A stretch of DNA of 64,000 nucleotides from Amoebophrya sp. A120 (GCA_905178155.1 CAJINV010000004.1:876629-940628), one strand, 5' to 3'; positions 6,501-63,984 are shown, numbered from the stretch's first letter. The notes: generated by a model from the sequence alone, not told the origin. Numbers and translations are program-made.

Positions 6501-9500
6501 GGTTGCGGTGGTCCCTTGTTCGACGTGTTCTTCATCTGGAGCTATCATCTGGACATCGCCGGACGAAGAAGAAGCTCGACTCGTGGTCGCAGTACCAGTC
6601 CCACTGCCCGTCCCATTGCTCGTTTCGTCTCCACCCGATCCGCCGCTCAAAGTACCACCTTCTGCGACGCTAGAAGACGCAGAGGAGGTCGACGTCGAGC
6701 GCTGCATCCCTGATGCTGTTCCATCGTGGCCTTGATGTTCCTCGCCGTCAATGTCCATGTTCAGAATACGATCGGCCTCGTGTTGCAGCAGCTGCTGCTG
6801 CTGTCCATATTCAGAATGCGCGGCTCCCGCGTCACTCCCACCTCCGGTTAGTGGTGGTGCAACCGTTACCGGCACCTCGACCTTTGCCTCTCCCATGAAG
6901 TCCAAGCCGTCATCCCGCGTGTAGCCGTGCAACACGGGTTTCTGTGCGAAGTGCACCCCGGCCGTGCCGTACTTCAAGATCTCGGGCATGGACGCGAGGA
7001 TCTGTTTTTTGTCCACAATCAAGCTCGAATCACAGCCGGAAAAGCAGGGCGACGGAACCGGGAAACCGGCCAGATCGTACTCGGACAGCGTTTTGTGTGT
7101 GTGCACCTGCTGTTTCAACCACGCAGCCATGCAAGTCTGCTTCTCGGAGTTCTTGCGAATATCATGGAACGACGAGGACGAGTTGTTTGTTCCAGCAGCT
7201 CGCGATGGCGGTCCACCTTTGCGGTCTTTGTCACTACTTTCACTTTCCTTTGCCAGTTGTAGATCCTGCCGGCTGTTCCCGAGTTTGCTTCTCTTCAGCG
7301 CAGGAACTTTTGGCGAGTTCGCGGCAGTGGGCGGTTTCGTCGTAATTCCACCACCTGGAGACAATGATCCAGAAAATTCTTGCTGGAGATGTTGCAAAGA
7401 TGGGTCTCGAAACAAGGGCAAACTGCCCGCAGCACGGCTCTGTGGCCACGCGGTGGCAGGTCCACCTCCCGCAGCAGTTCCGAGATGTCCAGCGCCAGCG
7501 CCCGCAGGAAGAACGCCGCTGCTACTAGTACCTCCAAGCTGCAAGCATTCCGGTTCCTGTTTCAAATATTTGGTCGCCTGCACATACAAACTTTCAAATT
7601 GGTCCTCTGCCACATCCAGCCCCGCCGTGCACCACCCGTTAAAGCCCCCACTACTCGCAATTACGTTGGAAAATAGGTCGAAGCTCTTCGGCGAGACAAA
7701 ATGCGCGGAGGCCATGCAAGCCCCCGAGGACTGCCCGAACAGCGTCACACGGGTCTTGTCCCCCCCGAAGTGGTGGATGTGTCGCTGAATCCACTGCAGG
7801 GCCAGGCGCGAATCCAGCAGAGACCAGTTGGCGTAGTCGGCGTCTTTCTCCTTCTGATGATACGGGTATGCTGTGCAAAAGTATCGTACTCGTATAAATG
7901 CTAATGCAAGTCTTGCATTACAAATCTTGTTCCTAAGGCAAATCTGCATTACAAATTTCTCATGCTGATGAAATTTGTAATGCATTTATACGAGTACGAT
8001 ACTTTTGCAGTTCATAACGGGTCGCCTGCTGCAACGGCACCAGTTGTAGTACCGCTGTACACAAGCCCAGTGCTGGCCGCGTGTCCTAGCGTTCCGGCGC
8101 GGATTTGCAACGAGACAAAGAGAAATTCCTCCCTCGAATACTGGAGGAGATTCTTCAAAAACTGCTTCCCGTCGGTTTGGCTCCCGTCCGCAAAACAAGA
8201 GCCCGCGAAGTACACGAAAACGGGCATTTTCTTCGTGTGCTGCGCTGAGGTAGAAGTACTCGTCGTGCTTGTCGCGGTTCCGCCAGCAGCAGGGGCTCCT
8301 TTGACGGGTGGCTGCAGAAGTTTTTGGTGCGGCGATGATGTCTGAGTCGCAGTAGTAGAAGACGTGCCCGCGGCGGAAGCTGTAGAAGATTGGACTGCAG
8401 TTCCAATCTTTGTTCCCTGCCCTTGTTGCTTCGCCTGCAGTTCCAACGCCCTCCTGACCGGCATAGTGATGTCGAGGCGCAGGCAATTTCGGCTCGAGGC
8501 CTGGTCCGGGTTCCGGTGCAACTCGCCGTTTTGGCACCCGGATCGAGACTCAATCGCGAAAAATCGAAAGTTGGAAGGGGAGGGTGGAGGTGGTTGTACG
8601 ACTGCCACAAATGACGATCCTTGCGCTGCAGGAGCTCCTGAGGACAGTGCGTGTTGGTCCTCCGGGCGGAAAGCGGACAATCTCATCGAAGTTGCGTCAT
8701 CTTTATCCTCTCCCTGCAGTTGCCCACTATTCGCGTTCTTCTTCATCGGCACTCGGCGCCGGGTGTTCTTCGGAAGCGAATTCGACGGCGGAGATGCAAC
8801 TTGTCGCTGCGTAGACACGACCGTGCTGGTTGCCGCTCCGGCACTCGCCGCCCCGGTACTAGCGGCTCCAGCAGGTGGCGCATCAGCTCCTGGGACCACA
8901 AAAGCTGCGGGCTGTGCCACAACTACCGGCTGTCCAAGCTGATCCGCCCTCGGCGGTTTCGGGGCCTCCCAGACCTCCGCCTGTCCGTACGCAATCCCCT
9001 TGAAAGTCATATGGGACTCTCAAACGTTACACTCTCAGCTGTTACATGAATTTGTCATGCTAAACCGACCGAAACCACTACACAACCTGTAAGGGCACCT
9101 CACCGCAGATGGTTCGGCCACCAGGTCGTGGAATCAGGCGGACCGAAGCCATCGCCATCACGCTCGGGCACATCATCCTACACGCCAACTTTACCTTACT
9201 TTCGCCACCAGTCCAACTTATCGCCAACATACGTTTAACGTTCGCCAACGATCCAACTTATAGCGCTCACAAACTGCGCAGGGACCGACCAGGCTAACTG
9301 CTATGAGGAAGCAGCAGCCTGCAGCTGGTCCCATGCGTACAAAGTAGATACTATTCGGAATCTTACGGACACCGCAGGCACGAAACCAGCCTGCGATGCG
9401 GTTTAGGAAATTCCGGTAAGCATATGGCAGAGCCTTTATCTTTTGAAAGCCAAGCACCTGAGAGCCAGGCAAAGGCTAGTGTAAAGGTTGCAGCTGAGAA

Positions 9501-11465
9501 TGAATCGACGGAGCTGCACATCTTGACCTCACGATCCAAACGAGGCGCGGACGTGACGGACGATGGAGCCGCTGCGCAGCTAACATAGAAGCGCAAAACG
9601 TCAATGCCAGGCCCATTGTCGATTCCACGGCGGGAAAGCTCCCGCGTCGTGGCCCACACCATCTCCCCCAGCGCTGCCAAGCCTTGAGCTCGCATCTATT
9701 GCGCGCCCCTTTCTCGCATCTATTGTGCTTGGGGAACAAGACTCGATTGAGCTTGTTGCTACTGGCTTGGGCGAGCTGGGGGATGAATTTGTCATGCAAA
9801 ACTACCTCAAGCCGCCAGATGATCAAGCGGCTACGCATGACAAATCTCCGAAGGGCTAAACAGGGCGTAAATCTGTGCCAGCTCTGTGATGCGAAAGCAG
9901 CAAGCTTGCCTCTTCGGCTATAGCTGTTCTTGCGTTACAAATTCATGCAACAGCTGAGAGCGTAACGTTTGAGAACGCCATAAGTCACCACCTGCGGGTC
10001 TGAGAACGGGTCGTCTACCACTACCTCGTCGCGTCGAGCGTGGCCCGCTACTTCTTCCCGCCCTTTTTGTTTCTCGAACTTCTTGTTGCTCGACGCCGGT
10101 AGTTCGGTCACGTAGGTCACTTTTCCGGACTTCTGCAGGGTGTTGCTGGATAAAAAATTCACCTTCGAAGATAAAGAAGAACTGCTCCCCGGTCGTCCAA
10201 CTCCCAAAGTAGGTGTACCAGCACTACCACTCGGCGAGTTGTAGAACAAAACCTTGTCGACTGAAATCGCGATTTGCTGCGGTATCGGAACCCTCTCTTT
10301 GTTACTTGTTTTCACCAGCGGAGCAAGTGCGTCGACGTGCAGAGTCACATGCGGTTGGTGATACTGCTCAGGACCTCCTGTAAACGAGTTCTGGTCTTGT
10401 ACTTGCAGCTCAGCTGTACCACTGATCATGTCTCCGCTGCTGGCGGGCGCGAGGGACCTGGCTCTTTCGTTTTCCATGCCCTTCCTCTCGTCCTCCCCAA
10501 CATTGCTGTCTTCTTGCAACTGGATGATTTTGAAATCGGCGCTATCCGCAAAGGAAATGTCGTCCTCGTCCACGACGGTTCCGTAGCGGCCGACAAGATT
10601 CGCGGGCGCGGATGGGACATCCCGCACCCGGACCAATTGGCCCGCGGTCCACGCTGTGAAAGTACAGATGTTCGATGAAATTTAAGTACACAAAAACAGG
10701 AGGCTTCGGCTTGCTTTTATTGCAAAGATCTCGTCCCAAGAAGTAACAAGCATCGCTGTGCTACAAGCTCGCAACTTAACAGGTCGCATCTATGTTCCTG
10801 CTTGTAGGTAGCTGGCGATTAGTGTCTCAACCGATCGCCACCGGAGCTTGACCGATCGCCAACGGAGCAGGCACAAAAGGGAAATCTAAAAAACAAAATC
10901 TACAAAACATCAAAAATAACATCAAGTACGGATGACACAGGTGTGAAACCCCGACCCTCCGATGCTTCCGTTGCAGCCGTTCCCTTCAAAGCCAATCCGG
11001 CAGCACATCCCCCCGGTGCCGCACGCGGCGCAGGGACCGTTTTCGTGGTCGCATATCCTGTGCAAAAGTATCGCACTCGTGCTAATTGCCTTTATGCATT
11101 ACAAATTCAATTTTTCATGCTGAGAAAATTTGCAATGCAGTTTGTACTAGTTCGATGCTTTTGCAATGCATATCACAGTGGTTCCAACAATCGTCCTCGC
11201 CGGGCTGGAGAACTATGGCTTCACCGCCCTCACCGCCGCCGCCCATGTTCCCGAAAATATTGCAGGCGTCGCCCCGACTGCTCCGGGTTCTGGTGAGGGC
11301 GGAAACAGATGAAGCACGATAGAGTATCGTCACCGTGAGGACCATGGCGCTCAGCATTTGTGCCATTTGTAGTCCTCTCTTGCATTTTTTTGCTCGCAAG
11401 ATCATCTTCGGTAGCTGCGATGACCAGGTGCGGAAAACGCCACCTGCACCAGGCAAAAATGACAT
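3536..11465 (-). CDS. Type-B carboxylesterase/cholinesterase-family protein with N-terminal hydrophobic segment and Cys-rich domain; 6 exons, ~2026 aa
   Basis: Exons approx 11465-11173, 11048-10930, 10653-9983, 9004-8017, 7861-4294, 3977-3536. Motifs: VTFKGIAY, NCLRLDITMP, PVFVYFAGSCF, NWSLLDSRLALQWIQRHIHHFGGDKTRVTLFGQSSG (nucleophile), GYTRDDG, PHGWE, YWANFAIFGNPN, HWPRF...QCGLW. One GT-AG intron (10929-10654) and four introners. Confidence 0.85.
3983..4293. mobile_element. Introner (family I, TATGGAAGCGTCAGG termini)
   Basis: ~55-60 bp imperfect terminal IR; flanking 5-bp DR ctagc. Removing 316 nt joins the two esterase ORF frames. Confidence 0.9.
7867..8016. mobile_element. Introner family A (TATnnnnTGCAAAAGTATCG)
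   Basis: IR termini; DR acggg. Removing 155 nt gives GDPYHQKEKDADYANWSLLD. Confidence 0.92.
9010..9982. mobile_element. Introner family D (TATGG..CTCAAACGTTAC) carrying a nested 722-bp insertion
   Basis: ~50-bp IR; DR agtca. Removing 978 nt gives DPQVVTFKGIAY. Ends align with the 216-bp copy at 24703-24918. Confidence 0.9.
9061..9782 (-). ncRNA. Putative retroposed structured RNA / SINE-like insertion with 15-bp TSD
   Basis: Flanked by atgaatttgtcatgc at 9046-9060 and 9783-9797. At least 6 stem-loop domains with G-U pairs favouring the minus strand; no convincing ORF. Confidence 0.6.
11054..11172. mobile_element. Introner family A
   Basis: TATCCTGTGCAAAAG / CTTTTGCAATGCATA; DR tcgca/tcaca. 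Removal joins CWNHCD-HENGPC. Confidence 0.88.
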
Positions 11466-11497
11466 GGATCTTGTGTGTTTGTTGTAACTCGGAAAGA

Positions 11498-14400: not shown

Positions 14401-15171
14401 TCTTGTTCACCCCCTTCCAGAACTGCCTGCCTACCTGCAGGCTAGCCGCGCTTGCCGCTATTGGTTGAAATTCTTGATTTAGTGCTATTCTGTTCATTCG
14501 ATTCGTCCATGCTTCGTCGCAATGCGCCCATAGCGGATTGTCTTTTAGTACTGTTGCTGCTACGGGGTCGCGGAGCGAGGAGATTCGCTCTGCGCTCGGG
14601 ATGTCGTCGGGGGGGAAGTCGTCGCCATCTCCTGCTGCGTTCTGCGAAGCCGCACCGGACGACTGCGAGGCAGCTACCGGCGGGGCCTGAACCTGTGAAG
14701 GGGGGCGGGGCTGAGTGCCTGCTGCACTCTCTACTTCTTTGCTTGGCCTGAAATCGGGCACCTCTTCCTCCTCCTGGTGGAAGGGCCAGATTCCGAGCGC
14801 GGCCCCCTTGTAGAAAGTCATTAATGCCTCTACTAGCAGACTGTCCACCGGGTGCGGCAGCCCTGTGGCATTGTACATGACCGAATTGCTGCAGTGCTTT
14901 GGAATGCCTAGCTTCTGTTTTATTTTTGTTGCAAACTCTTTCGCGATTTCCTTCTTTGCTGTCTGTGTGAAATACGGAAATGTCACTACGGAAACCGATG
15001 TCACTGCTGGGAATGCAAAAGATTCGATGAGCATCTTGATTTGTTTCTTGCTCCAACCTTTTTCGGTTTGTAAAAATGCAAACTCCTTTCCGACTTTTTT
15101 CAAAACCTGCTCTGCCTGGGAGTTGAAAGAGTACGTCCCGTCGTACGTTACTCCGAGACTCTTCCCAACCC
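11498..15171 (-). mobile_element. 5'-truncated non-LTR retrotransposon (RNase H-containing clade)
   Basis: RT C-terminal remnant KSLGVTYDGTYSF, RNase H, CCHC-type knuckle, ~1.6-kb 3' UTR, (TC)n tail. Candidate TSD cggaaaga at 11490-11497 and 15172-15179. Confidence 0.75.
13124..15170 (-). pseudogene. Truncated LINE ORF2: RT thumb remnant + RNase H + Zn knuckle
   Basis: TFTDGGAKG...GECFGL...FYIDSN...LNWCPSHLGCYFNDFADAMA (RNase H D-E-D-D) and CPIC-x7-HVLYEC. No RT core or endonuclease in the window. Confidence 0.8.
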
Positions 15172-16754: not shown

Positions 16755-17388
16755 CTACTTCTCGTCCTCCTTGTTAAACATGAAGGTCAGCCCGGACTTC
16801 CCGCAATGGTAGCGGTTGTGATGCATCGCCATGAAGACGCCTGCTCCGCAGATCGGGCTCTCCTTACGCAACCGGGTCACTTTGTTGTTGGCGTCGACCT
16901 GTCGACGTGTTTCGTATTGGTCATTATTTTATAATTCGCAAGTGCGGACGAGATCATACGAGCTAGTTGTGACATTTCATCTTTATCGATATTTCTGAAA
17001 ATAAATAAGTTTTGGAGGACTGAGGAATCCGAATGCTGGTGTTCATCTTCACGTTGTACTTTACCTTGTAGTATTTCAACACTGCGAGCTTGACTTTCTT
17101 GTGCTTGTGCTTGATCTTCTTCGGCTTGGTGTACTGCTTCTTCTTGCGCTTCTTCCCCGCGCCGAGCAGGTCGACATTCACGTCGACCGTGCACTCCTCT
17201 TGCAGCACCTCCCCGACGAAAGCGTCTTCCGGGATGTCCTTGCCCCCATAGGACAAGTGGAAATTATTTTCCTGCTCTTTTTCCACGACGTCCAGAGTGG
17301 CCAGCAGTTCCCCAACCGTGGCCTTCTCATCGACGCAACGCACCTGCGAGGCGCCGTCGACGCCACGCACGAAGATCTGCATCGGCAT
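16755..17388 (-). CDS. RPS27A: Ubiquitin-like-ribosomal protein eS31 (S27a) fusion, 2 exons, 155 aa
   Basis: [30 protein letters not shown]|[13 protein letters not shown]...CGAGVFMA; GT-AG intron 17064-16899. Confidence 0.95.
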
Positions 17389-21112: not shown

Positions 21113-23638
21113 AATTTGATACAACACCACCTGCGTTTATTCTAGTTGACCCGCGGCCCTGCTTTTTCTCCCCGCCTGGTCCTGTGTCGTTCACATCTAT
21201 TCTCACTGCTTCCTTGTGGCCCCCCGCCCCAAACACCACAGTGCCGCCCGGTGCATCATGTCGTCCTCCGCCTGAAGATCCACCAAATGCGTCCATGTGT
21301 GCCAGCTCTAGATTCACTTTACTACCACTGTTTATTCCCGCGTCTTCTTCCTCGTCCAAAGCTGAATCAAGATTGTAATTCTCTTCGTCCTCGTCCTGTA
21401 ATCCGAACTCCTCGTCATCCAGCACTTCTCTGTTCGGCACCGACTCAAACCCGAATTTGGACAAGTACTTCTCCTGCAAGTTTAAGCTCCGTTTCGTCAC
21501 CGGCGACTTTATCTTGCGCGAGGACGACCCCGGCGAAGATAGTACCCGCCCGATCGCGTTGCTCGGAGTCGGTATCTTGCTGCTTTCCTCGCGGCCGTAT
21601 CGATCGTAGAAGAGAACGCCAAACGCGCCGACGAGAAAGCCGACGATCTGCTTCCAATGCACAGGATATCAAGTGTAAAAGTGTCTGGGTCTGGAAGAAT
21701 GCGCGATTTGTCATGCTGCTTTTCCATGACCCATGAGGTCTGGAATGCCGGAGCTAGCATGACAGATTGTGCGAGAGCTTTCTAATGCCTATCCTGCATG
21801 AGAAACTACCTCCCGCCTTGGTCAAAATTGGGCGACTTTTGGTAATCATGCAACACAGATTTTTGCATGCTGCAGATTTACTAGCATGACAAGTTGCAAT
21901 CTTCCAGACCCAGACACTTTTACATTTGATACAGGATTGTTAAATACGATCGCGGACACCAAGATCGTGGTCGGCGTTTTCATATGCTCTGCAAAAGTAT
22001 CGTGCTCGTACGAATTGCTTTTTATACATTTTTACAAATCTTTTTGATATAGGCAAATCCGCATTACAGATTTGATTTGTAATGCTGTGCCAAATTTGTA
22101 TTGCAATTTATACTTACTAGTACGATACTTTTGCAATGCATATTTCATGTTCCCCACCACCATGGCCACGACCGCGCCCAGGTAGCCGATGGTGAGAAAC
22201 CCGATCAAATTGAACATGGCCGCCATGAACGCGCCGAGGCAAACCCAAAATTTCCCCATCGAGGTCAATGCGAAGTAAAATTCGTAGTAGGGCTCGAGTT
22301 GGTTTTCCTGGAAAAAGCTCCAAATGAAGAAGAGCAGCATGTTGACCGGGCTGCTGTAGTACAGCAGGGAAATGGAATCCAGTTTCAAATCCGCGCCACG
22401 AAGCAGCTCCGCTTGCAGCACGGCTTTCACCGCCCGGAACAGCGCGGCAGACAGGGAAATCAGCAGCCCGAACACGGCGAATTGGCTGCCCTCGTTGAAC
22501 GCGCAAATCGCGCCGCCGCCGCAGACCGGGATCAGGGCGAGGTAGGCACTGCGGTTGAACCTGTAGAAATTTCAGAGTCATGCTGTAGCTCTTTGGTGTG
22601 CCAGGCGGGCTGAAGCGAAAAAGTTTAAATTGCAACAAAGGAGGTTAGAAAACAAACGCAAATCTAAATCAATGTTTCTTCGTAGATGATGATGATGATC
22701 TGGAAGTGGTAGTAGATCCGATTTGCTTCGCAACATTTTGGGAACATCAACATATGTAGATGTACCTTTTCCCCTGAAACACCATGGCAGACAGCACGGT
22801 CCAGAGCGGCGTTGAGTTTTGCAGCATCGCGTGAAATATGGACTGCAAAAATGTCTGGGTCTGGAGGAGTGCAAGATTTCTCATGCACATTTTGCATGAC
22901 CACCCATGATGTCTGTGATGCTGATGCCTGCCCTAGCATCACAAATTTTTTGAGGGCTTTCTGATGCGTATCCTGCATGAAAAATGCCCTCTCCACCGTG
23001 TAGCACAAACACAAAGTCGAATCTTCTACTTGCTAGTCATGCAACACAGATTTTTTTAGAACCCGAAGCCAGCATCAGAAGTTGCATCCTTCCACCAGAC
23101 CCAGACATTTTTGCAATCCATATGAAACGACGGGTAGAGGTAGACGAGCGCCATGTTCGCCGCACCCAGACTCAGCGCTCCGGCGCAGGAGAAGGGTGTT
23201 ATCAAAAAGAGTTGCTGCCTCATGGTCAATATCGGCCGGGTTTCCCTGGGGACGATTTCGAACACGAAGAGACCAACGCTCGCCGCCACGTAACTCATCA
23301 GCATGTGCGTCCCGGTCAGCCACACCGGGTAACGAAAATGGTGCTCGACGTACAGCTATGAACTGCAAAAGTATCGCACTCGTATAAACGCATTACAAAA
23401 AATTTCCTCAGCATGAGAAATCAAATTTGTAATGCTGATCGGACTTCAGAAAAAAATTTGTGATGCAAGACTTGCATTTATACGAATACGATGCTTTTGT
23501 ACAGGATAACAGCCATTTCGTCACGTTCACCAAACCGACAGAAATCGCAAACCCGGTTATCACGAGGATGAAAATGTAGCACCGACCGATTTTACTCGTG
23601 CTGCTGGTACCGCTGTCAGAAGCAGAAGTGGCGGCCAT
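21111..23638 (-). CDS. Triose-phosphate/nucleotide-sugar transporter family (SLC35E-like), 6 exons, ~479 aa
   Basis: Spliced: KWLYVEHHFRYPVWLTGTHM...LGAANMALVYLYPSFHAMLQNSTPLWTV...FRAVKAVLQ...LLYYSSP...VVGNMKTPTTILVSAIVFNNPVHWKQIVGF. Four introners plus GT-AG intron 22765-22561. Confidence 0.88.
21667..21931. mobile_element. Introner family B (TAT..TG[CT]AAAA[AG]TGTCTGGGTCTGG)
   Basis: IR termini; DR cagga. Removing 270 nt is in frame. Confidence 0.92.
21983..22142. mobile_element. Introner family A
   Basis: DR tttca. Removing 165 nt gives GNMKTPTT. Confidence 0.92.
22837..23122. mobile_element. Introner family B
   Basis: DR tgaaa. Removing 291 nt gives PSFHAMLQ. Confidence 0.92.
23357..23508. 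mobile_element. Introner family A
   Basis: DR acagc. Removing 157 nt gives KWLYVEHHF. Confidence 0.92.
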
Positions 23639-46700: not shown

Positions 46701-49700
46701 CATCAAAATATCAGCGTTGATCAGCTTGGCGCAGGCCAGCTGCATCTTCACCTTCCAGCCACCGGAGTAGGTGGTGATCGGGTTGCACATGTCCGCTGCA
46801 GCCTTCAGGTTGACGCCCTTGGCCTTGTTCTTGAACCCGATCAGGCCGAGCTCCGCTTCCGCGTCGGCCAGGGTGATCGGCGGAGACTTCTTGTACACGT
46901 TGTTCACGGTGTCCACGCAGAACTCCATTCCGTTCAAATCGATGTTGAACTTACCCAGCGGCCACTCCTTGCTCTCTATGCAACACAAATTTCTTGCCCT
47001 CGCACAGAACAGCACGACCCAGAAAAGAGAATGATGCAACGTCATCAATGATTCCTCTCTTCACGCGATGAGAACGACAGGGGAGATCTCGAACTTGTTC
47101 CGCGAACCTCTTTTAACATGCCTCTTCAGTGTACTATGAATCTACTGTGCTTCGTGTTCTATCTCGGGAACAAAATTTTCACTGTGGATACTCGGTTCTT
47201 CGAGCATGCGCTCCTCGACCTCGTGCTCGACGAAGATGGTAACCAACTCGTCGCGCTTCGGGAAGCCCTCAACCTTTTCCTTGGAGATGGCGCGCATCAG
47301 GGTGGTCTTACCGCAGTTGTTCGGTCCGAGCAGGGCGTAGAACTTGTTGCGCTTCAGGTGCAACTTGGTGTCACGGAGGAGGGTAAGCGTTCCGTAGGCG
47401 AGGGAGAAGCTGCCCTTGTAGAGATCCGGGGCCGGATCCTCATCGATGAACTCGATCTCCGTGTTCTTACCAGCGTTGGCAAGCTCGTTCATGATACCCT
47501 CCACGGCCTTGGGGTCGGACACGTACGGTCCGAGGACCTCCTTCCAGGCAGCGAGATCGTAGCTGTGTTGGTGGTGGAGAGAATGGTGGTTTAGGATTTT
47601 AGGAGCAATTAGGCGGGAAGAGACGATTTTAAAGTCATTCGAAATCGATTTGTTACTGCTGAAAGGGAAAAGACGAAACAGTACTTCGCACTCAACCCGC
47701 CGCACAAAGCATAATCAACATCGAACGATTGAAAGACAGTAATCTCGCTCTTAGGTGCAACAGTCCTGATCAAGAACTGCTAGTGAACAACAGTATACAG
47801 CTCCCATTCCGACAATCTTCAACGAATGATAAAATTAAAAAACAACATGTTTACCAGTTCGCCTTGTTCATGGAGTAGGAGACCTTCTGCAGGTAGACGG
47901 CGACGGATTCGTTCAAGAAGCCCAAAGAAGTGTGCTTGTTCGCGACTTCCTTGAAGTCCACCTCCGGCTTCGGGCCGACGGCGTGCAGCTTCTGGATGGT
48001 GGCCAGGCACTTCTCCGCCATCTCACGGCAGTCCGGGTCGGAGATCTCGGCGGCGCGCTTCTCCACGAGGGGAAGAATCTCCGGGAACAGCGGCTGACCC
48101 TCACGCGGGTCATCGACCAACTTACACCTGAGAAAGAGGGTTTGCTTCGAAATTTGAAATCAAAGATTGCGTGCAAAGCATCAATTTGCACTTTGCTAAT
48201 TTGCGGAAAGACGAAAATACTATCCGAAGAGATTGGCAATCTTGACTGTCACTACGTTAAAGAACCTTCACCCCACAACAAAAGGGGAGAAGGGGTGAAC
48301 GCGCAGTTGGTGGTTTGGCAGAAAAATTAGGAGGAGTTCCACGGAAATTTCGAAATTCCGCGCTCCGCTGGAATTCTGCACAAAGTGAAAGTCCTTACCT
48401 ATCTGCATGACAAGGAATCGAAAAAAAGGTGATGAAACAAACATATCTTAGAGTGTATTACAAGGGGGGGCTGGCACAGATGACAAAACCACAGATGAAC
48501 AGATGACACAGATGACAATTTTTGAGTGTCATGCAAATTTTGAGACACAGATGACAGATGACGCCACCACTCTCCGCCATTTTCCGTGTCGCTCGGCTTC
48601 CGCATCAATCAGAATCCGGTCGTGGGAATCCGAATTTTATCGGAGTCCGCCTGTGCGTTGCAAAAATCTAGGAGCTAGCTCATGCCTGTGCGTTGCAAAA
48701 AATCTAGGGTCGGTTCGTGCGTGTGAAAATGAAAATAGTCCGTAACACGCGGACAATAAGCGGGACGCTGGCAGAAGTGTGACGCTTTTCTTGGAAATAT
48801 TACTATGATGGGCCACAGAATCACGCCTGCCCTTCTATGCCTATGCATGGGCTGGCTTGCCCTTCTAGTTCTAAAGTCCTCTACTCCGCGCGCTTTTCTG
48901 TTCGAAGGGTCTTCTGGTTCTGGATAAAACTCCCGGGCGTCCACTCTGGGCTGCTGCTCGCCTATGAAAATACTACTACGTCATCTGTGTCTAATCAGTA
49001 TCCTGCAACTAGTTCTGTATTAGGGGCCGCCTTCCGCTTTCGGTTGTGATGATTTCGGGGTGCCGGTTTTTGATGTTCCAATTTTGTCATCTGTGTCCAC
49101 AGATGACAAAAGTTCCGCATTCGCTCAAAATGTTGAAATTTGTCATCTGTGTCATCTGTTTCATCTGTGTCATCTGTCATCTGTGTAGTAAAACAGTCTA
49201 ATATCTTTCTCGCAATCACTGGTTCTACTTGGATCACCACGAGAGCGCACATAAAACTAAAACAAGAACCGTATCATATTTATCAATACATGTTATCGAC
49301 GATGACGCAGCACCGACGCTGAGTGGCCTCGGACTTGGTGTTCAACCCACGCCAGAGCACCGGGGTGATGACCGCCAAGTGCGGAGCCTCGACGTTCTGC
49401 ACGAAGACGCACCCGGCGAGCTTCTCGACGCACTCCTCGACGTTCTTCAAAGACTCGTTCGCCTTGATGATGGTCGGGATAAAAGATTCCGCAACCACGG
49501 TCGCGCCCTCCTCGGAACCGATCAAATCCTTGTTGCCGCAGGTGAAGCACACGGTGTTCAAGGTGTCCTTGGCCTTGGCCTTCACTTCCTTCTTGATATC
49601 GTTCATCAGGAGTACAATGGGCTGGATGATCCACTCAATCTCGCGGGCGAAAGCCTTCGGGTGCTTCTTCGCGAACTTCTCAACCAGGGTGAGCGCAAGC

Positions 49701-51553: not shown

Positions 51554-54500
51554 CTAGGACAGTCCATTGTGTCTCAACAGCGCATCCACGGTTGGTTCCC
51601 GACCGCGAAATTCCTTGAACACCTCCAACGGCGCGACGCCTCCGCCGAGCCCCAGCACCGTATCTGCAAATTTTCGTCCAGTTTTTTCGATCTCCTTCTC
51701 GTTCTGCAGCCCAACTTCCTCGAACGCGGCGAAGCAGTCCGCGGACAAGACTTCCGCCCACTTGTAGCTGAAGTAGCCCGCTGCGTAGCCGCCCGCGAAG
51801 ATGTGCGCGAAGGAGCAGAGAAAGCGGTCGTAGGGGAGTAGTGGTAGGACGTCAAATTTGTCCGAGACCTTCTTGTCCACTTCCCACATGGTGTATGAGA
51901 GTGCACAAAAAGTTCATCTTCGCCTCCCCTTCTTCATTTGGCGTGCGAAACGCGATGTCTTTTCCTACGTTTCAAAAATTTTGCATGAGAGAAGTGAGAC
52001 CCACAAACAACGCCACGCTATGTTCGTTGTAGACTAAGATTTCTCACGCAGAGCATACACATTTCTATCCTAGCTCTCTCTGGTGTTGCTAGTTTTCCAT
52101 TCCAAAGGAGGGAGGCAAGGGGGTGTGGTTGTGCACTCTCATATGGTCTGTTCTGCCTTCTTCACCGGGTCGGACTTTTCTGCAGAGGAACCATCTCCAG
52201 CAGCAGTGTAGTACCTGGAGTGCAACTCTAAATCGACGAAGGAAAAGTGGAGCTGTCGCAGCATCATGCTTGCCGCCCGGTAGTTCTTGGCCTTCACCAG
52301 CTTCTGAAACAGCGCGTCCGGCAGTTTTTCCCCCGTTTCGTAGTGAATCGCCATGGAGTCCACGGTTGGCTTGTCGTAGCACCTATGGGGTCGCCAAAGT
52401 TGTATTTGCCTCAAGCTGTAAAAAAATTTCCGCGCGCCTTTTTTTGTATTTAATGCCCATCATGCTGCACGCGTATAGCCTCCCGCTATGTTGCGCACCT
52501 AATGAACTCGCTAGCTTATTCGCAGCGCTTCTCAGTGGCTAAAGACGGAGCTATCCGGCGCTGCTGCTCCACAGACTTGCCTTGGAGCGCCCGTGCAACC
52601 TGGAGGTGCTGCAGCAGGTTCTCTTGCAGTCCAGCCGCTAGACAATGGGTCTCAATCTGTGCAAGTCGGTCGGAGCCGCTGGCGCAAATGGAACCGGCCG
52701 CGGCTGCGCTCCCCCTTGTTTCTAATGTCGCGCAGCTGTGCGCGCGTGCACCGGCAGGCGCGCGCGCTTTTTGCCTTTGCGGCTTTTTCTTGAAAATGCG
52801 AAAAGCCCGAGAGCCTTTCGGGAGGGGTTCCGAGAGGGGTTCCGGGACCCCTTTTGGGGAGGGGTAGCACCATCGTGATTCGAAGAAAAAGCGGTAGGGT
52901 TTTTTTTTAGGGTTCCGGGCACCCCTGCGGCCCCCCCTTTTTGGAAGGGCTCCGGATAGGCCTTCGCGGCCAATATATGTGCGCGGCACCCGCTAGAGAC
53001 GACGACGCCAGGGCCTGAGTAGACATATCGGGGGGCGCTTGCAGCCTCACACCCTGACCCAGGCCATAGCGGCAACTAGCTTCACGGAGAGAGCAATCCG
53101 GAAAACAAAGCAAAACATTGCGGGCGCCCGGCGTTTTCTATGTGAAAACATCAGCCAACAAAGAACCCTCAACGCCCCGCCCTCCTCCACGTCAGTACTC
53201 ACCTACCTACTAGAGCTCTGCTGCTGACAAGCTAGCTAAAACAAACCGCGTTCAGGTCAGCCCTTCACTTGCGTGCACAGGTTTACTAGCTTTGCGACGC
53301 GAAAAAATGCGCGCAGAATTTTTTTGACGGTCTGAGGCAAATCGCCATGGAGTCCACGGTTGGTTTGTCGTAGCACCAATTTTCCATGAACTGCGACGGC
53401 TGCTCTACCGCGTCCCATTCAACGTTCCGGATTCCCGCCGCCATCCCCTCGGATTCCTTGGTCAGCATGTGCTGTAGCGCGTGGCCGAATTCGTGGAACA
53501 AGGTTTCGACCTCCCGGAAGTTCATCAACGACGGGATTTTTTTCTCGCCGCTCGTCACCGGCGGCGTTTATGGATTGCAAAAGTTGTACTATCCTCGCAT
53601 ACAGCGGCAACTGCGTTGCGAATTTTTCCAAGGACGACAATGAAGCTTTTTCAACATTTTGAAAATGCGCATTCAGGTCGAGTAAAAGCAGATCTGTCAA
53701 CACGCGGCGTGGCAGTTACTAGTACCAGTATGAGCACGAAACTTTTGCAATTATGCATACTGTCTGGTTGCACACCATGTGCGCGACGGGCAGTCGGATC
53801 TTCTTCTCTCCTTGCACCAGCTCCGGGTTCGCGGTCCTCCCGCACACCTCGTCCATCCACGCGCCGCCCTTTTTCGTTTCAGGCCGGGAAAACGGGTCGA
53901 GGTAGAAGTAGGAAACCACTTCATTGTCCTTGACTATCTCAAACACCATCACGTCCTCGTTCCAGAGGGAGACTCCGAGCTTTGTTTTTTCCTCGGCCGA
54001 CGCGATTTCCCGGATGGAAATCCCGAATAACTTGTTCGCCAGGTTCCACAGCCCCGATAGGACCTTTGGTAAGGGGATATCAACGGCAAAAGTTCTTGTA
54101 TCGCACGAGGGCGCAGTAGTAGCAATACTGTATCTAATAGATATGACTACAAACCTGCACCTGGTGATGTCTACTACAGGAAAAAATAAACAACTCAGCA
54201 ATTATGACAAGTTATTCCGCTTGTCGACATCATGCTAAAGAGCAAATGCAAATTTGTATATGCCACCAGTACTACCGCGAGGACACTTTCGCTTTTGCAA
54301 CGCGTAGGAAAAGTAGGGCTTCAGCTCCTCTTCGTTGAACTCGTATTTCATCTCTTTCATTCGTTCCGCGTAGTAGGGCACGTCCCACTGCATCAGCTTC
54401 TCGTCCTTCGGGAACGGCAGTTTTTCGTACTCCGTCTTCGCGAATTTCTCCAAGTCTTCCAGTTCCTTCACCGTATGCAATGCAAAAGCATCGTACTAGT

Positions 54501-57231
54501 ATAAATTGCATTACAGATTAGCCCAGCGTTACAAATTAAATTTGTAATGCTGATTTACCTTGAGAAAGAGATTTGTAATGCATAAATGCAATTACTTACT
54601 ACGGGTACGATACTTTTGCACAGGATACACCGCCGTCGCGTACGATTTGGACCGCAAATCCTCGATCAACTTGTTCGCGGACTCAAAGGTCGCCATCTTT
54701 TTTGCCATGGACACCTCGGCGTAATTCTTGTACCCAAGCAGCTCCGCGTTCTCCTGGCGCAGTTTCAGGATTTCCTCCATCAGCGGCGTGTTGTCCTTGA
54801 TTTTCCCCTCCTCGTCCTTGTCACATTGCACAACTCCCCCTCGTTCTCATTTCTCATGCAAAATACCAAATCCACGCTTTGCCTCCTGTCACTATTACTT
54901 ATGCATGACAAGTTCTGGTAGCCCGAATAGCACTACAATCCAGTGGAAATCTGTCATGCAAAACCGGCACCCTTGCTGATGCTTGTATTGCCGTTCATGC
55001 TATACAAATGAGGGGGAGGGGGAGTTGTGCACTGTCATAGTCCTTCAGATCCGTGCTGAACTCGCTCGCCCGCTTCAGATGCGCCTGGTACATCTTCTTC
55101 CGCAGCTCGCGGTCGGTGGAGTGCTGCATCACCGGCAAATACGACGGCATGTCCAGGGTGAACAGCCAGGGACCGTCTTCAGCGGTGGCAGACTCTTCCT
55201 TGCCTGGAGTTCGTTGTTGGGGATTTTTCTTTTCCGGTGTTTATTCTTGTTGATGCTGATCTTGAGTTGTTAACATGATCTTCGTCTCAAGTGATGAGGA
55301 TGCGGGAAAGAGTACATCAAAGGAGGTCTAGGTAGACGACATGATCAGCACCAACTTTTGCAGGTGCTGGCGCAACACAAGTTTGGATTTTTTTAATCTT
55401 TTTTTGCTACGACGAAAAACCAAAAAGCTCCTCTACAATTGATTACCTTTCGTTTTTGCTTGCTGAGCTCCGAGTTGCAGCGCTGAGGTTGGTAAGCCCG
55501 CGACTTCTTCCTGATATTCGTATTTTCATTTTGAAGAGAGCATTATTTAAGGTTTTACAGTATCCTTTCTGTCCCGTGCGGCGTGTCACCAGGAGCCGCA
55601 CGTCATCGTATTCATATTATTATTATTTTTAGAGCGTAAGAAATGATTCTCATTCTTCGCCAGATTGATGCATGAAAACACATGACAAGAGACGTAGAAA
55701 AATCGACATGCACATCCGCATGCTCATCCAAATTACATTTTATCGCATACAACTCAACGAAGTGGATATCAACATACCCTTTTCGTGAGTTTGACCGAGA
55801 ATGCCTTGGTTGCATCCTGCAAGTTGTTCGTGAATTTCGTTTTCAGTTCGCCCATCCTCTTTGTGTTCGCGTTATACTTGACTTTTTTCTCCCCGGTCAG
55901 CCCAACGCCCGACAATTTCGCCGCCAGCAGCTCGTGCTCCACGATCCGGGCCTGGCTTTTTGAGAAGGTTATCCTGAGTAAAAGCGTCCCCATAACAGAG
56001 TTAAGCTGGGAAATCTGCTAGACAAATCAACCAGATATGGTTGCTTCGCATGACAAGTTTGTCCTGGTAGTGTGATCCTGTTTAGCTAGTTCCGAAGCAT
56101 CACAGATCTAGCATATCATGCCGATAGTAGCATCACAAATTCCACAACACGACTAGAAAATGGCTCTCATGAGGCTCCGCATGAGAAACTTTTTTGGCAT
56201 GCAAATTTGCATGACAACTCTGGGGTGGGGACGTTTTTACTTAGGATAAAGGTTTTCTCCTTCTTATCCTGTTCCGACAGAAACTGCCAGGCCTTGTACA
56301 GTTCCTCGCTCTGCCCCATCCGGAGCCCGAATTCGATTACTTTCGGCTGCATCTTCTCCACGACCGCGCGCAGCGCGTCGGAGTCCTTCACCGATTTCAA
56401 GTGTTTCACCACGCCCCACGCCCGGGAGAGCTTGTCATCGAACTGCTCCACTTCTAGCGCAACCTCGGCGTAGGTGAGGTTGGGCGTGGGCTTCGCAAGC
56501 TCGTCCTTGATTTTCGTTTCCAGCTGCTCCAACGACTTCAAAGCGTGCTGCAGGTGCTCTTCGATGCCGGGTTCCACATGGTCCGGCGTCACCTCGCCAA
56601 ACGGCGGGAAGAGCTGGGACCCCGGGAAAAGCAGCGGGTTTTTGTGTGTCGCCCCGTCGCCCGCGGGTGGTAAAACCGGCGACATGGTCGTGCTCAGACT
56701 GCGGGAGGAGGAGGAGCTAGTACGGGTGGACTGAAGGTTGTTCTTCGCGCTAGTGGAAGCTGAGGAAGAACTACTGGATGTAGTAGCTCCGCTGCTTGCG
56801 CTTTGTCTATTCCCCGTTAGAATCCCCGTAGGACTAGTTGTACTGGAGTTACTAGTACCACAACCTGCGAAGAGAAAACAGATGCCGAGTAGAAAAGCGG
56901 AGAGACAGAAATAGCGCTTGACCGCACTGTAGTTTAAGCACTGCGCGGTTATGGATTTCAGAAAACTACCAAAGCTAGATGGATTGTTATTAAAAGAAGT
57001 GCTATCGCTGTTAAAGAGCAATTGGTGGAGCCTCGCGACCCTGGCCGCGCTACTTCTATGGCCGCCGAAGTCCGAGGTGGAACTTCGGTCGTCCGGGTCG
57101 TCGACCGGGGTGCCGAGGTCGATGTCCTCTAAAATAGTAGCTTGCTGGTCGTCTACAACTTCCGCTCGGTTTTTGCCCAGGATTCTCTGGTGGTAGTTAC
57201 TACTGCTTGATGACCCTAAAAAAGACGCCAT
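51554..57231 (-). CDS. prlC: Oligopeptidase A (peptidase M3A), 10 exons, ~939 aa, with N-terminal hydrophobic/Ser-rich extension
   Basis: [47 protein letters not shown] (HEXXH), [42 protein letters not shown]. Six introners and three GT-AG introns; exon lengths sum to 2820 nt. Confidence 0.93.
51894..52143. mobile_element. Introner family G (TATGA.AGTGCACAA)
   Basis: 15-bp perfect IR; DR tggtg/tggtc. Removing 255 nt gives EQTMWEVD. Confidence 0.88.
52346..53377. repeat. 38-bp exon duplication (52346-52383 / 53340-53377) bracketing a 994-nt intron
   Basis: aatcgccatggagtccacggttgg[c/t]ttgtcgtagcacc occurs twice, each copy encoding [12 protein letters not shown]. Confidence 0.92.
52404..53342. 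mobile_element. TIR element (ATTTGCCTCA... termini) inside the duplication-bounded intron
   Basis: ~40-bp imperfect TIR; GC-rich interior with ggggttccg repeats; no TSD seen. Confidence 0.7.
53569..53759. mobile_element. Eroded family-A introner
   Basis: tatggattgcaaaagt / acttttgcaattatgcata; DR decayed. Removing 196 nt gives CNQTPPV. Confidence 0.8.
54078..54306. mobile_element. Eroded family-A-like introner
   Basis: tatcaacggcaaaagt / cttttgcaacgcgta; flanks gggga/ggaaa. Removing 234 nt gives PYF[S/P]LPKVL. Confidence 0.78.
54474..54627. mobile_element. Introner family A
   Basis: DR caccg. Removing 159 nt gives TAVKELEDL. Confidence 0.92.
54819..55039. mobile_element. Introner family G (TGT left end)
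   Basis: tgcacaactccccctc IR; DR gtcct. Removing 226 nt gives [14 protein letters not shown]. Confidence 0.88.
55970..56248. mobile_element. Introner family F (TATCCT.AGTAAAA.CGTCCCC)
   Basis: DR aaggt. Removing 284 nt gives [12 protein letters not shown]. Confidence 0.9.
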
Positions 57232-59184: not shown

Positions 59185-62051
59185 TCATCTTCGCATCTCT
59201 GCCATTTCCCGCTGTTCTCGCATTGTTCGTGCGTGCAAAACCTTCGCGTCGGAGAGCAAGGAACAAGACCCAGCACCAGCTGCCGTAGTTGTACGAGGGC
59301 CACTGCCTCTATTTTTACTGTTCCCCGACAGAAGCGACGTCGAAGTAGAGGAGGTGGGTGCCAGTTGTGATTCATGACTATGCAGCAGCGTGTACAAGTT
59401 GCCTGAGGTAACCGCGAAGCTGTGTAAAACCTCGGCATCCTTCGCTTCCTGCCGCTGTTTCCGCTTCTGCTTCTCCTCTTCCTCTTTTTGCCTCCGCAAC
59501 CCGATGCGTGCTTTAATCGCGGCGAGATCGACGGTGGTGCCGAAATTGTTGATCATCTGGATAAAGTTGTAGCCCGGGATGCTCGGGGACAGAAGGGCTT
59601 TTGAGGCAGTAGTTCCATTTGTTGCGCCTGTTTCGGCGTCGACGTGGTCCTTGATCTGATTTATCAGCTCCTCTGAGGTGGAGCTCCTGTGAAGATCTCC
59701 AACAACTTCTACCGTCTCACAGCACGATGCAGCCGAAAAGTCTATTCTGCGCGCAGTCGTGAAGGCTCCTGCTTCATCTTCCGCAGGTGCTGTGTTGTGC
59801 CGGCTGGTGACGAGAAATGAGGAGTTCGTCTCTGATTGTTCTGGGACGAGAACTTGAGCTTCATCTTTCATCTGCCCACCCGACGTCGTGAAGGATTCGG
59901 AAGACGAATCAGAACGAGACTCTTCGTTTTTCGTCATTTTGATTTTCCACTTTCGGTAACTTCGTCGAATTTCCACGAGGTTGTACTGGTCTGCGAAATC
60001 GTCATTTGGTTCGCGGCGAAGTAAATGACGCTCGTGCATTTCCTCGGGCGCTCGCTTCGTTCCAACAAAACAAGAAGAAGAAGAAGAGGAACCACTCCTC
60101 ATCTGGCGCTTTATTTCTGCAGCTGCGTGGTCATCCACTTGTCGCGAAACCAGCTCGCTCCGTGGGTTGTACGCAGAAAGAACTACAGGCGTGCGCGACG
60201 AGGACAACATCATCCCATTCCCACCGCCACCATTCACAACTTCGTACACGCTGAGTTCGTGTTTCCTATGCTCGCTGGCCCGCGTGTTGTCCAAAACGCT
60301 CCTATGCATTGCAAGAAAGTATCGCACTCGTATAAATGCATTACAAATTTCCTCAGCATGAAAAACAAAATTTGTAATGCTGATTTGCCTTAGCAAGATG
60401 ATTTGTAATGCATAACTGCAATTATACGAGTACGATACTTTTGCACAGGATAGCTCCATGCGTAGTACAAAACGAAGAAGCAGTATCACGAGAAAGAAGT
60501 GTTACAGTTACACATTTGTTGGAGTTTCTGCATCACAAATTTTCTCTGTGTGGCAGAGAAAACTTGTAATGCGAAAATCATAAGGGAAAACAGCAAGGAA
60601 ACGAGGCTCCGAAGCATTTCCTGCATGAGGAAGGTTGTCTCAGTTGCCAGTTTTGCATGACAATGTGTAACTGTAACACTTTTTTCTTGTGATAAGCAGC
60701 CCGCGAGGGAGACCAGCACCCCGCGCATCTCCGACTTCGCCTCCGCGTCTTCCGTATCAAATGCAAAAATGTCTGGGTCTGGAAGATTGCAACTTGTCAT
60801 GCTGTCTTTAGATTCCACAAAAGTCTGTATTGCCTGACCGGCAAAAGGAGTCCAGTTTGTGCTACTCGGAGAGGGCATTTCTCATGCGGAATACGCACCA
60901 GAAAGCCCTCTCAAAATCTGTGATGCTAGGCCATGCATTACAGCCATAATGCGTCATGCAAATTATGCATGACAAACCTGGCACTCTTCCAGACCCAGAC
61001 ACTTTTGCAATTCATATTCCGCTGCGATAGCCGCTTCGCACGCTCGTCTCTGCTTCTCCTCAATGTTCTGGCTGCGGAGCAGGTCCTCCACGGACATGGT
61101 GGATCTGGCACCACTACTAGCATTTTTCCTCTCGGCCTGCTGTGCTGTGTTCGATGAATCATGATCCTGGTCCTGAAATGAACTAGTCCCACTTGTTCTT
61201 CCCCAAGAACTTCTACGCGACCTCGTGGCTCTTTGCTCGTTCTCCGAGCTCAGCATCTGCTTCTGGAATCTCTCTTCCTCGTCGAGCAGCTTCAACGCTT
61301 CCTGGTACTGTTTTTTCATCTCCACAAATGCTGCGGTCGTGCTTTGCTCGCTTCCGTTTTTGGTAGGATTTTTTGCGTGGTATTGTACCAGATCCGGATG
61401 CAGCTTTTTTGACTTCGCGAAGTACGCCTTTTTCAGCAGCCTGCGGTCGACTTTGTCCACGCCGAAACCCGTTTTCAGTAAAAACGCCAGTCGCTTCCGA
61501 CGCACCATAGCGGGCATGCTGTCGGTGCTGCCGGGCGAATTGTGGTGCTGCTGGTCATGCCGTGCTGCTGAAGCTGTAGTGAAGAAAACCCGCCGGAGGT
61601 CTGGTGCTCCTCGGTGTACTAGTCCTGTCCTTCCCCTGCTAGTTGTATCAGGTTCGTGCCGAAACACCTGGTGCTGAAGACCCGTACTGCTACTAGAGGA
61701 GGACGACGAGCATGTGCTTCTTGGAATTGCCCGCGGTAGAGAGGACGAGAGGCAACTGTAGCCCTGGAGGTGCTGTGCTGGAGCTGCCAAGAGCCCTGGT
61801 CGGAGCTGCACTACCTTCAGGCGGGTGGCAAAGGGGTTTCGGTGAATGTGCTGGGCAGTCGAGGTGCTGGGCGCGCTACGAAATAGTACACCAACCGCGA
61901 GGTGCTCGGACATGTGTGACTGGCAGTTGCTGGGTGTCCGTTTGCTCTGGAATACTTCCGATTCAGAGCAATTGCGATAATGTTGCCCTTTGACAGAGCT
62001 GTCAACCAGAGAGGTTGAGCTGCTCCGTCTGCGGCGCAAGATCGCCATCAT
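59185..62051 (-). CDS. J-domain (DnaJ-type) membrane protein, 4 exons, ~742 aa
   Basis: LKKAYFAKSKKLHPD...AFVEMKKQYQEAL. Spliced TM segment GVLVSLAGCFFVLYYAWSVL; Arg/Ser-rich N-terminus; three introners. Confidence 0.78.
60303..60452. mobile_element. Introner family A
   Basis: DR gctcc. Removing 155 nt is in frame. Confidence 0.92.
60484..60694. mobile_element. Introner family H (TATCAC.AGAAA.AAGTGTTACAGTTACACATT)
   Basis: 33-bp IR; DR agcag. Removing 216 nt is in frame. Confidence 0.92.
60755..61016. mobile_element. Introner family B
   Basis: DR ttccg. Removing 267 nt gives AAEDAEAKS. Confidence 0.92.
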
Positions 62052-63453: not shown

Positions 63454-63984
63454 TTATTGGGTCCCAAAGGGCCGCATCTGCGCAGCGAAATCCACAAATC
63501 CGAGTCGGCGGGACTGGCTGCCGGCGAACCGCTGCCAGAGCAACTCGATCTCCTTGGTCCGCACGTTCCGCTGCTCCAGGATGGCTTTTTGGAAGTCCAG
63601 GAAGGAGATGTATCCCTTGTCGTCCGACATCAGGAGGAAGGCGTCCAGCAGCGCGGTATATCCTGTGCAAAAGTATCGTACTAGTAGTAATCCTAATCGC
63701 AGTCATGCATTACAAATTCTCTTCTTAAGGTAAACCCGCATCACAAATTTTATTTCCCATGCTGAGAAAATTTGTCATGCGATTCATACTAGAACGATAT
63801 TTTTGCAGTTCATACGGTAGACAGCGCGTCCACGTCCATCATGAGCATTTTCCGGAACCGCTCCGTGTCCTCGGCCGCGTCGATTGCGAACTTCAAGTAC
63901 TGCTTGATTTTGTGCTTCTGGGTCAAGGTCAACCGGAACTCCGTGTCACGGTCGTCGCCGATCAGGTTGCAGCGGAAGGGCGTG
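63454..63984 (-). CDS. 3' end of an EF-hand-like protein gene (starts beyond the window)
   Basis: Spliced ...MDVDALSTALLDAFLLMSDDKGYISFLDFQKAI...EIELLWQRF...LGFVDFAAQMRPFGTQ*. Confidence 0.72.
63659..63814. mobile_element. Introner family A
   Basis: DR cggta. Removing 161 nt is in frame. Confidence 0.92.

What the first reader, a model, noticed from the sequence alone, without database searches (positions are those of the whole stretch)
7867..63814. Family-A introners occur in both orientations relative to transcription (4:4)
Seen: judged by internal sequence, copies at 7867, 11054, 21983 and 63659 are the reverse complement of copies at 23357, 24454, 54474 and 60303, yet all host genes are on the minus strand. 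Established: spliceosomal introns need strand-specific donor, branch-point and acceptor signals. Inference: removal depends on the symmetric hairpin/termini or happens at the DNA level.
Basis: partly seen in the sequence, partly recalled or inferred. Interest (0 to 1): 0.72.

Follow-up and report, generated by a model that had tools for sequence, protein, structure and literature searches.

The report
Two-way hairpin introns without splice signals
In a marine single-celled parasite, small hairpin-shaped jumping elements sit inside genes facing either way and are missing, cleanly, from the RNA although they lack the usual splice signals, likely because the cell reads their mirror-image ends instead of a one-way code.

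Summary
Observation confirmed. The eight 119-160-nt elements (TAT...ATA inverted ends, 5-bp target duplication) fall 4:4 by internal sequence, all in minus-strand reading frames. In a second assembly, 144 further copies split 47:51 (98 with confident host strand). The elements are the published Amoebophrya A120-type introners (PMC7789003); the nearest named protein is from that organism. RNA contigs (one sample) lack element plus one duplication copy at 5 of 5 copies tested, three of one orientation and two of the other; one contig has both orientations removed. DNA contigs keep the elements, so the DNA-level idea is not supported. None of the 8 copies has a GT/GC-AG register. Where the duplicated copies differ, the transcript-upstream copy is kept (4 of 4), placing the donor at, or one base before, the terminal TAT and leaving the acceptor without a sequence signal. 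Best reading: RNA splicing set by the symmetric ends, probably by an altered spliceosome. Either-way introners are known elsewhere, but with normal splice sites; I found no report of this for Amoebophrya. The scan noted similar signal-free hairpin introns in two other genomes (unchecked). Efficiency per orientation and the enzyme are untested.

The parts
7862..8021 (-). Family-A copy 7867-8016 (7867-type orientation) with 5-bp duplication ACGGG on both sides; intron of 155 nt in a carboxylesterase-family gene
   Evidence: RNA joint 7861-8017 in X3 and X6
11049..11177 (-). Family-A copy 11054-11172 (7867-type, internally deleted); duplication copies differ at position 3; RNA keeps the transcript-upstream copy
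   Evidence: RNA joint 11048-11173, 2 shared letters, X3 only, depth 4.5
21978..22147 (-). Family-A copy 21983-22142 (7867-type) in a triose-phosphate-transporter-family gene
   Evidence: RNA joint skips 165 in 4 of 4 runs; Pfam TPT below cut-off
23352..23513 (-). Family-A copy 23357-23508 (opposite, 23357-type) in the same transcript as 21983
   Evidence: RNA joint skips 157 in 4 of 4 runs, same contig as 21983; DNA contig bridges 23508/23509 with 39 letters in the element
24449..24615 (-). Family-A copy 24454-24610 (23357-type) in a mitochondrial-carrier-family gene; duplication copies differ at transcript position 4; RNA keeps the upstream copy
   Evidence: RNA joint 24447-24610, 2 shared letters, 4 of 4 runs
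54469..54632 (-). Family-A copy 54474-54627 (23357-type) in a peptidase M3 gene
   Evidence: flanks match Peptidase_M3 positions 28-81 and 87-136; no RNA laid
60298..60457 (-). Family-A copy 60303-60452 (23357-type) in a long open frame of no Pfam family
   Evidence: no RNA laid
63654..63819 (-). Family-A copy 63659-63814 (7867-type) in a probable EF-hand gene
   Evidence: E 2.3e-4, below cut-off; no RNA laid
21662..21936 (-). Family-B element 21667-21931; B copies at 22837-23122, 25900-26151 and 60755-61016; 2:2 in the window, 12:11 overall
   Evidence: RNA joints for 21667 and 22837
44359..44519 (-). Family-C element 44364-44514 in the elongation factor 3 gene (second C copy at 24251-24402); upstream duplication letter gives the conserved His
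   Evidence: His in 109 of 109 motif-matching proteins, the query's own P0001 included; RNA joint for 24251
46972..47195 (-). Further TAT...ATA element 46977-47190 in the elongation factor 3 gene; upstream copy gives the conserved Pro, downstream copy would give Glu
9005..9987 (-). 973-nt TAT...ATA element; other single elements at 3983-4293, 20307-21121, 24703-24918, 51894-52143, 55970-56248, 60484-60694
   Evidence: RNA joints for 9010 and 20307
10654..10929 (-). Canonical GT-AG intron (donor GTA), internal control; a second at 22561-22765

Best explanation
These are small non-coding, transposon-like elements that sit in exons in either orientation and are absent, together with one copy of their 5-bp target duplication, from the RNA, likely cut out of the pre-mRNA by an altered spliceosome that reads the element's symmetric ends. 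Shown: two orientations without bias; exact loss from RNA contigs in both orientations; presence in DNA contigs; no GT/AG at the junctions; the transcript-upstream duplication copy is the one kept. Inferred: because both ends read TAT-(G/C)-N6-AAAA inward, whichever end is transcribed first serves as donor, with the cut at the terminal TAT or one base before it (then n-U-A matches positions +2/+3 of this organism's normal GTA donors, with +1 free); the terminal stem brings the ends together and the acceptor falls 4-5 nt past the closing ATA whatever its letters. Insertion (inferred) is by a transposase or integrase that makes a 5-bp staggered cut, so removal restores the original exon without a scar.
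For: Orientation 4:4 here, 47:51 of 98 outside, 7 of 17 neighbouring pairs opposite without any strand call, family B 12:11. RNA joints at 10 of 10 elements lying wholly in 7400-24800, each skipping element plus 5; the same contigs drop two GT-AG introns and have no cover over 12629-14952, so they behave as RNA. DNA contigs cross borders at depth 23-30, like unique DNA at 26-37. 0 of 8 family-A copies have a GT/GC-AG register, 1 has GA-AG; 13 of 170 elements have any GY-AG register, no G or AG excess in the duplication. Hairpins of similar energy on both strands, z -3.2 to -13.0; arms 90-98% matched at positions 8-15. Upstream copy kept in 2 of 2 RNA cases, one per orientation, and 2 of 2 homology cases; RNA limits the donor to offsets {-2,-1,0} and {-1,0,+1}. 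9 of 9 canonical donors seen begin GTA. In PMC7789003 Table S4 all nine top A25 motifs start TT and all nine top A120 motifs have T second; U1 was not detected but 83 of 89 spliceosomal proteins and U2, U4, U6 were (section 10).
Against: No test of the enzyme: nothing here shows a lariat, a branch point or spliceosome binding. The register rests on two RNA junctions from one sample (11054 from one contig of depth 4.5) and assumes one fixed register; DNA reads over those two mismatches were not displayed, so an assembly error is not excluded, though 32 of 144 outside copies also carry a mismatch. Offset -1 versus 0 is unresolved, and +5 is G or C about equally (49:49), which does not match a strong donor consensus. 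Table S4 motifs may reflect aligner choice. Contigs drop rare forms and cannot measure efficiency. Outside host strands are model calls (1 discordant of 14 confident pairs).
Confidence: 0.55

Rival explanations
1. RNA-level but not spliceosomal: a structure-guided endonuclease cuts on both sides of the terminal stem and a ligase joins the exons, as proposed for euglenid nonconventional introns.
For: Junction letters are free at both ends; stem conserved in both strands; U1 not found in these genomes; euglenid introns have variable borders, a stem offset from the ends and leave as circles (PMC3935182 passages; PMC11282704 passages). All my RNA and DNA results fit this equally.
Against: The terminal TAT is kept as a sequence across unrelated families (partly imposed by my search, but also reported in PMC7789003) and lines up with +2/+3 of the GTA donors; the spliceosome is nearly complete. 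TAT could, however, be kept for transposition alone.
Confidence: 0.33
2. The elements are removed at the DNA level, like ciliate internal eliminated sequences, or excise before transcription.
For: TA-starting inverted ends and strand symmetry. The DNA run's joint table showed only 15 of 841 rows and contigs drop rare forms, so a small excised fraction is not excluded.
Against: DNA contigs of X1 cross borders at single-copy depth, five borders with 31 or more letters on both sides, one of them family A (23508); two other A borders are crossed with 25 and 27 letters only. The kept duplication copy follows transcription direction in opposite-facing copies.
Confidence: 0.03
3. The joins are library artefacts: reverse transcriptase or PCR skipping a hairpin between short direct repeats, the elements being plain gene-breaking insertions.
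For: Hairpin plus direct repeat is the textbook setting for template switching (recalled, not from a call); the RNA is one sample.
Against: 21 of 21 elements lie in minus-strand frames that open on removal, five in one transporter gene; conserved genes such as elongation factor 3 need it. Reverse transcriptase would copy the downstream duplication first and keep it, whereas the upstream copy is kept (inference); conserved His and Pro point the same way without any library. DNA contigs show no such skipping.
Confidence: 0.03
4. Ordinary spliceosomal introns with hidden canonical sites made by the duplication, as in Aureococcus or Polarella.
For: Known route to two-way introners; 13 of 170 elements do offer a GY-AG register.
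Against: 157 of 170 do not; 0 of 8 window copies offer GT/GC-AG, and 5 of them are still removed exactly.
Confidence: 0.04

Closest known systems
Introner elements among the non-canonical introns of Amoebophrya sp. A120 (Farhat et al. 2021, PMC7789003; I read sections 10, 11, 12, 16, passages, and searched the one text supplement; figures not visible)
   Same: Inverted-repeat ends starting TAT, seven looser bases, then three or more A; 3-5-nt direct repeats; no splice signature; co-oriented gene blocks; elongation factor 3 exon 100% identical over 93% of the query to a protein named Amoebophrya sp. A120.
   Different: The paper's text and supplement text never mention element strand ('strand' 0 hits; 'orientation' only for genes), leave the border undetermined inside the repeat, and do not use repeat mismatches to place the cut. 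I could not match family A to one of its 1,954 families.
Either-orientation introners of Polarella glacialis and Aureococcus anophagefferens (bioRxiv 10.1101/2020.10.14.339549, passages; the Aureococcus paper itself was not available)
   Same: Inverted-repeat transposons with a target duplication that create introns in both orientations.
   Different: They draw GT/GC/GA and AG sites from element or duplication, and classes 6, 8 and 10 are said to favour one orientation; here there is no such site and no measurable bias in families A and B.
Euglenid nonconventional introns (PMC3935182 and PMC11282704, passages)
   Same: Variable borders, terminal stem set asymmetrically to the cut sites, direct repeats at junctions, proposed MITE origin, unknown enzyme.
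   Different: Different lineage and motif (CA/TG at +4,+5 and -7,-6; pyrimidine|purine junctions); here TAT...ATA and no junction preference. Circular products not tested here.
Fritillaria borealis transposon-derived non-canonical introns (PMC11282704 passages; PMC13326754 search listing only)
   Same: MITE-derived introns removed despite non-GT-AG ends, there by an adapted spliceosome.
   Different: Those have preferred ends (AG-AC, AG-AT); these have none at the acceptor.

Membership tests
Amoebophrya A120-type introner elements | Terminal inverted repeat beginning TAT, ~7 loose bases, >=3 A | tested here: met
   TAT-(G/C)-N6-AAAA on both arms of 170 elements (TAT and, for family A, one arm were imposed by the search); paper motif
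Amoebophrya A120-type introner elements | 3-5-nt direct repeat at the borders | tested here: met
   5-bp duplication, 6 of 8 perfect, 2 with 4/5
Amoebophrya A120-type introner elements | Repeated family removed from transcripts at non-canonical borders | tested here: met
Amoebophrya A120-type introner elements | Host is Amoebophrya | tested here: met
   best hit of a window exon is 100% identical to a protein named Amoebophrya sp. A120
Amoebophrya A120-type introner elements | Assignment to one of the published families | not testable with these tools
   the supplement held as text gives family counts only
Canonical U2/U12 spliceosomal intron | GT/GC-AG or AT-AC ends | tested here: not met
   0 of 8 family-A copies in any register that fits the product; one GA-AG option at 60303
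Canonical U2/U12 spliceosomal intron | Lariat and branch point | not testable with these tools
   only assembled RNA contigs were available for this strain
MITE (non-autonomous TIR DNA transposon) | Short, non-coding, inverted ends, target duplication, many dispersed copies | tested here: met
   144 distinct copies in 127 loci, median pair identity 75%
MITE (non-autonomous TIR DNA transposon) | Partner transposase with matching ends | tested here: inconclusive
   11 open frames of the two longest window elements had no Pfam hit; no whole genome held
Ciliate-type internal eliminated sequence | Absent from the expressed DNA genome | tested here: not met
   DNA contigs keep the elements at single-copy depth; rare excision not excluded
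Euglenid nonconventional intron | CA/TG at +4,+5/-7,-6 and pyrimidine|purine junctions | tested here: not met
   junction letters match exon background
Euglenid nonconventional intron | Release as full-length circle | not testable with these tools
   no raw reads of this strain (X9, X10 hardly laid)

The most novel reading that the evidence does not exclude
Amoebophrya has a splicing mode in which the donor is just n-U-A at the foot of a hairpin and the acceptor is measured off the hairpin with no sequence at all. Any TAT...ATA element with a 5-bp duplication then becomes a scarless intron at any exon position and in either direction, a fully orientation-free and target-free introner, and the GTA donors and the A25 TTA and A120 nTAT ends are one signal with +1 relaxed.
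Probability: 0.35. Interest if true: 0.8.

Novelty: new variant of a known kind. Interest (0 to 1): 0.52.

Why it matters
How Amoebophrya removes tens of thousands of introns without GT-AG ends or a detectable U1 is an open question in the papers read. Two-way removal rules out any needed signal in the element's asymmetric middle and confines it to the ~30-nt symmetric ends. Mismatched duplications (32 of 144 copies) are built-in markers that would fix the exact cut genome-wide from existing RNA reads, which turns a vague 'hairpin' model into a testable register. It would also explain why these elements spread so freely: no target sequence and no direction is needed.

Tried and rejected
No whole genome held and the outside records could not be opened further, so no genome-wide tally; the 161 loci are a capped scan. 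Viral contigs: 0 matches. No run was on record as an RNA holder; X3-X6 were judged RNA from their joins and gaps. Stop-codon support for upstream retention at L089:301 and L063:192 was rejected: wrong element bounds or discordant strand call. A hint that duplication mismatches at positions 4-5 are mostly silent (1 of 9 changing the residue, against 15 of 24 at 1-3; p 0.017) fell to 1 of 8 against 11 of 20 (p 0.09) with stricter strand calls; post hoc, not used. The frame control shows only that element plus 5 (or plus 2) keeps frame. Pfam check of outside strand calls: 7 of 115 predicted-strand flanks hit, 0 of 116 opposite; these 7 split 3:4. Rfam: 0 matches. No asymmetry found between 5' and 3' arms (TATC-first 38, TATG-first 32 among mixed copies). 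Literature searches for a prior report: (last: 0 papers); subscription journals and the figures of PMC7789003 were not visible, and supplements of PMC12130899 and PMC9860276 were not opened.

Full report
Observation. The eight copies exist at the stated places. Each is 119-160 nt, AT-rich (31-35% GC), begins TAT and ends ATA with about 30-nt imperfect inverted repeats, and is flanked by a 5-bp duplication, perfect in 6 and 4/5 in 2. With the ends trimmed, 12 of 12 within-group pairs align better same-strand and 15 of 16 between-group pairs better as reverse complements, with 1 tie. The two ends differ at positions 4-7 (TATCCTG at one end in 76 of 144 outside copies; TATGCAT or TATGAAC at the other in 82 of 144), so orientation is well defined.

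Hosts. A scan found 21 elements of this build in the window and a 22nd turned up in the elongation factor 3 gene. Taking out element plus one duplication copy opens a minus-strand frame across 21 of 21. Pfam places carboxylesterase, triose-phosphate transporter, mitochondrial carrier, peptidase M3 and EF-hand matches on the minus strand; 7 of 16 window flanks hit, none next to 11054 or 60303. A window exon is 100% identical over 93% of its length to a protein named Amoebophrya sp. A120, and the end motif is the one published for that organism's introners (PMC7789003 section 11).

Is 4:4 chance? No genome was held. They hold 219 distinct elements, 144 of family A. Host strand was called with a codon-phase Markov model trained on window genes; on held-out window coding pieces it was right in 101 of 101 (200 nt) and 68 of 68 (300 nt) calls at margin 3 or more, 95% overall. 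Orientation against host strand was 77:67 for all, 65:57, 47:51, 39:41 and 28:31 at margins 3, 5, 8 and 12. Wrong strand calls would hide a bias, so I checked: 7 of 115 predicted-strand flanks hit Pfam against 0 of 116 opposite; 13 of 14 confident neighbour pairs agree on strand; and, with no strand call at all, 7 of 17 neighbouring copies 38-587 nt apart face opposite ways. Family B is 12:11; smaller families (6:1, 4:1, 3:0, 3:0, 2:1 three times) are too small to judge.

RNA or DNA? Four contig sets from one sample (X3-X6) behave as RNA: they drop two GT-AG introns, have no cover over 12629-14952 and vary widely in depth. They join exons across 10 of 10 elements lying wholly in 7400-24800, each time skipping element plus 5 nt: family A at 7867 (2 of 4 runs), 11054 (1 of 4), 21983, 23357 and 24454 (4 of 4 each). 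One contig of about 2 kb in each run lacks both 21983 and the opposite-facing 23357. DNA-like contigs (X1) cover the whole stretch and cross exon-element borders at depth 23-30, as unique DNA does (26-37); five borders are crossed with 31 or more letters, one of family A. Only 15 of 841 joints were shown in that call, X1 may be the window's own source, and contigs drop rare forms, so slight DNA excision is not excluded; bulk excision is.

No splice signal. Across all cut positions that give the same product, 0 of 8 family-A copies offer GT/GC-AG; 60303 offers GA-AG. Among 170 elements put in transcript direction (149 outside, 21 window), duplication letters match exon background, and 13 have any GY-AG register. 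Both strands fold into long hairpins of like energy (for 7867, -68.0 and -67.4 kcal/mol; z -3.2 to -13.0 over 8 folds of 4 copies).

Where is the cut? Where the two duplication copies differ, the mRNA shows which is kept. At 11054 (position 3) and 24454 (position 4), which face opposite ways, the RNA has the transcript-upstream letter; the donor can then lie at offsets {-2,-1,0} and {-1,0,+1} from the terminal T, so -1 or 0 if the register is fixed. At 44364 and 46977 the upstream letters give the conserved His (109 of 109 motif matches) and Pro, which constrains positions 1 and 1-2 only. Two further cases were dropped. So the element is symmetric but the cut has polarity: donor at the element's edge, acceptor 4-5 arbitrary bases past ATA. 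At offset -1 the intron begins n-U-A, and 9 of 9 canonical donors seen here begin GTA; the published top motifs are all TT-NN in A25, whose repeats start TTA, and all NT-NN in A120, though aligners may cause the latter. This is the basis for preferring an altered spliceosome (0.55) over a nuclease-ligase route (0.33); it is inference, not a test.

Comparison with print. The elements are known (PMC7789003). Two-way introners are known in Polarella and Aureococcus but use normal sites. In the text of PMC7789003 and its supplement 'strand' does not occur and 'orientation' refers to genes; passages of PMC12130899, PMC9860276, PMC11282704 and PMC11453091 say nothing on orientation of Amoebophrya introners; a search for Amoebophrya, introns and 'both orientations' gave 0 papers. 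Figures and subscription papers were not visible. Two earlier AI notes of this scan describe signal-free hairpin introns in other genomes; I did not check them; no note matched this sequence or genome.

Verdict. Real feature, known element class, with an apparently unreported property: unbiased two-way insertion with exact RNA removal, no splice dinucleotides, and a transcription-polar cut that existing reads could fix exactly. Interest 0.52.

Noticed in passing
window 46977-47190: A 22nd TAT...ATA element with a 3/5 duplication, missed by the scan, inside the elongation factor 3 gene; more aged copies probably remain.
   Followed up: yes
window 9010-9982 and 20307-21121: Long (973 and 815 nt) elements spliced out like the short ones; their open frames have no Pfam match; candidates for remains of an autonomous partner.
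   Followed up: partly
L001-L161 and window: Duplication mismatches fall from position 1 to 5 in transcript direction (11, 10, 8, 6, 5) and those at 4-5 are mostly silent; weak (p about 0.09-0.11), could mean a sliding cut.
   Followed up: partly
family-A ends, all copies: The two arms pair at positions 1-3 and 8-15 but mostly not at 4-7 (17-52% match), giving an internal loop at the foot of the hairpin; family B arms often pair there.
   Followed up: partly
window 21882-21931: Raw RNA run X9, which does not otherwise match this window, has reads matching the family-B end with other flanks; a related strain may share the family.
   Followed up: no
window 11400-15100 and 20400-20900: DNA contigs differ from the window at many single letters, often at about twice single-copy depth; repeated or misassembled sequence, including a 699-codon minus-strand frame at 13127-15223 with no RNA cover and no Pfam match.
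   Followed up: no
window 32394-40409: A 2672-codon minus-strand frame with weak EF-hand matches and no introner over 8 kb, in a genome with about one per 3 kb.
   Followed up: partly
window 16966-17412, 18355-19158, 27219-28850: Ubiquitin-like fusion gene (highest RNA contig depth), RNA polymerase Rpb6 and tRNA methyltransferase GCD14 genes, all on the minus strand and free of introners.
   Followed up: partly
L005:701-1072: Three end matches in 372 nt suggest a composite or nested family-A copy.
   Followed up: no
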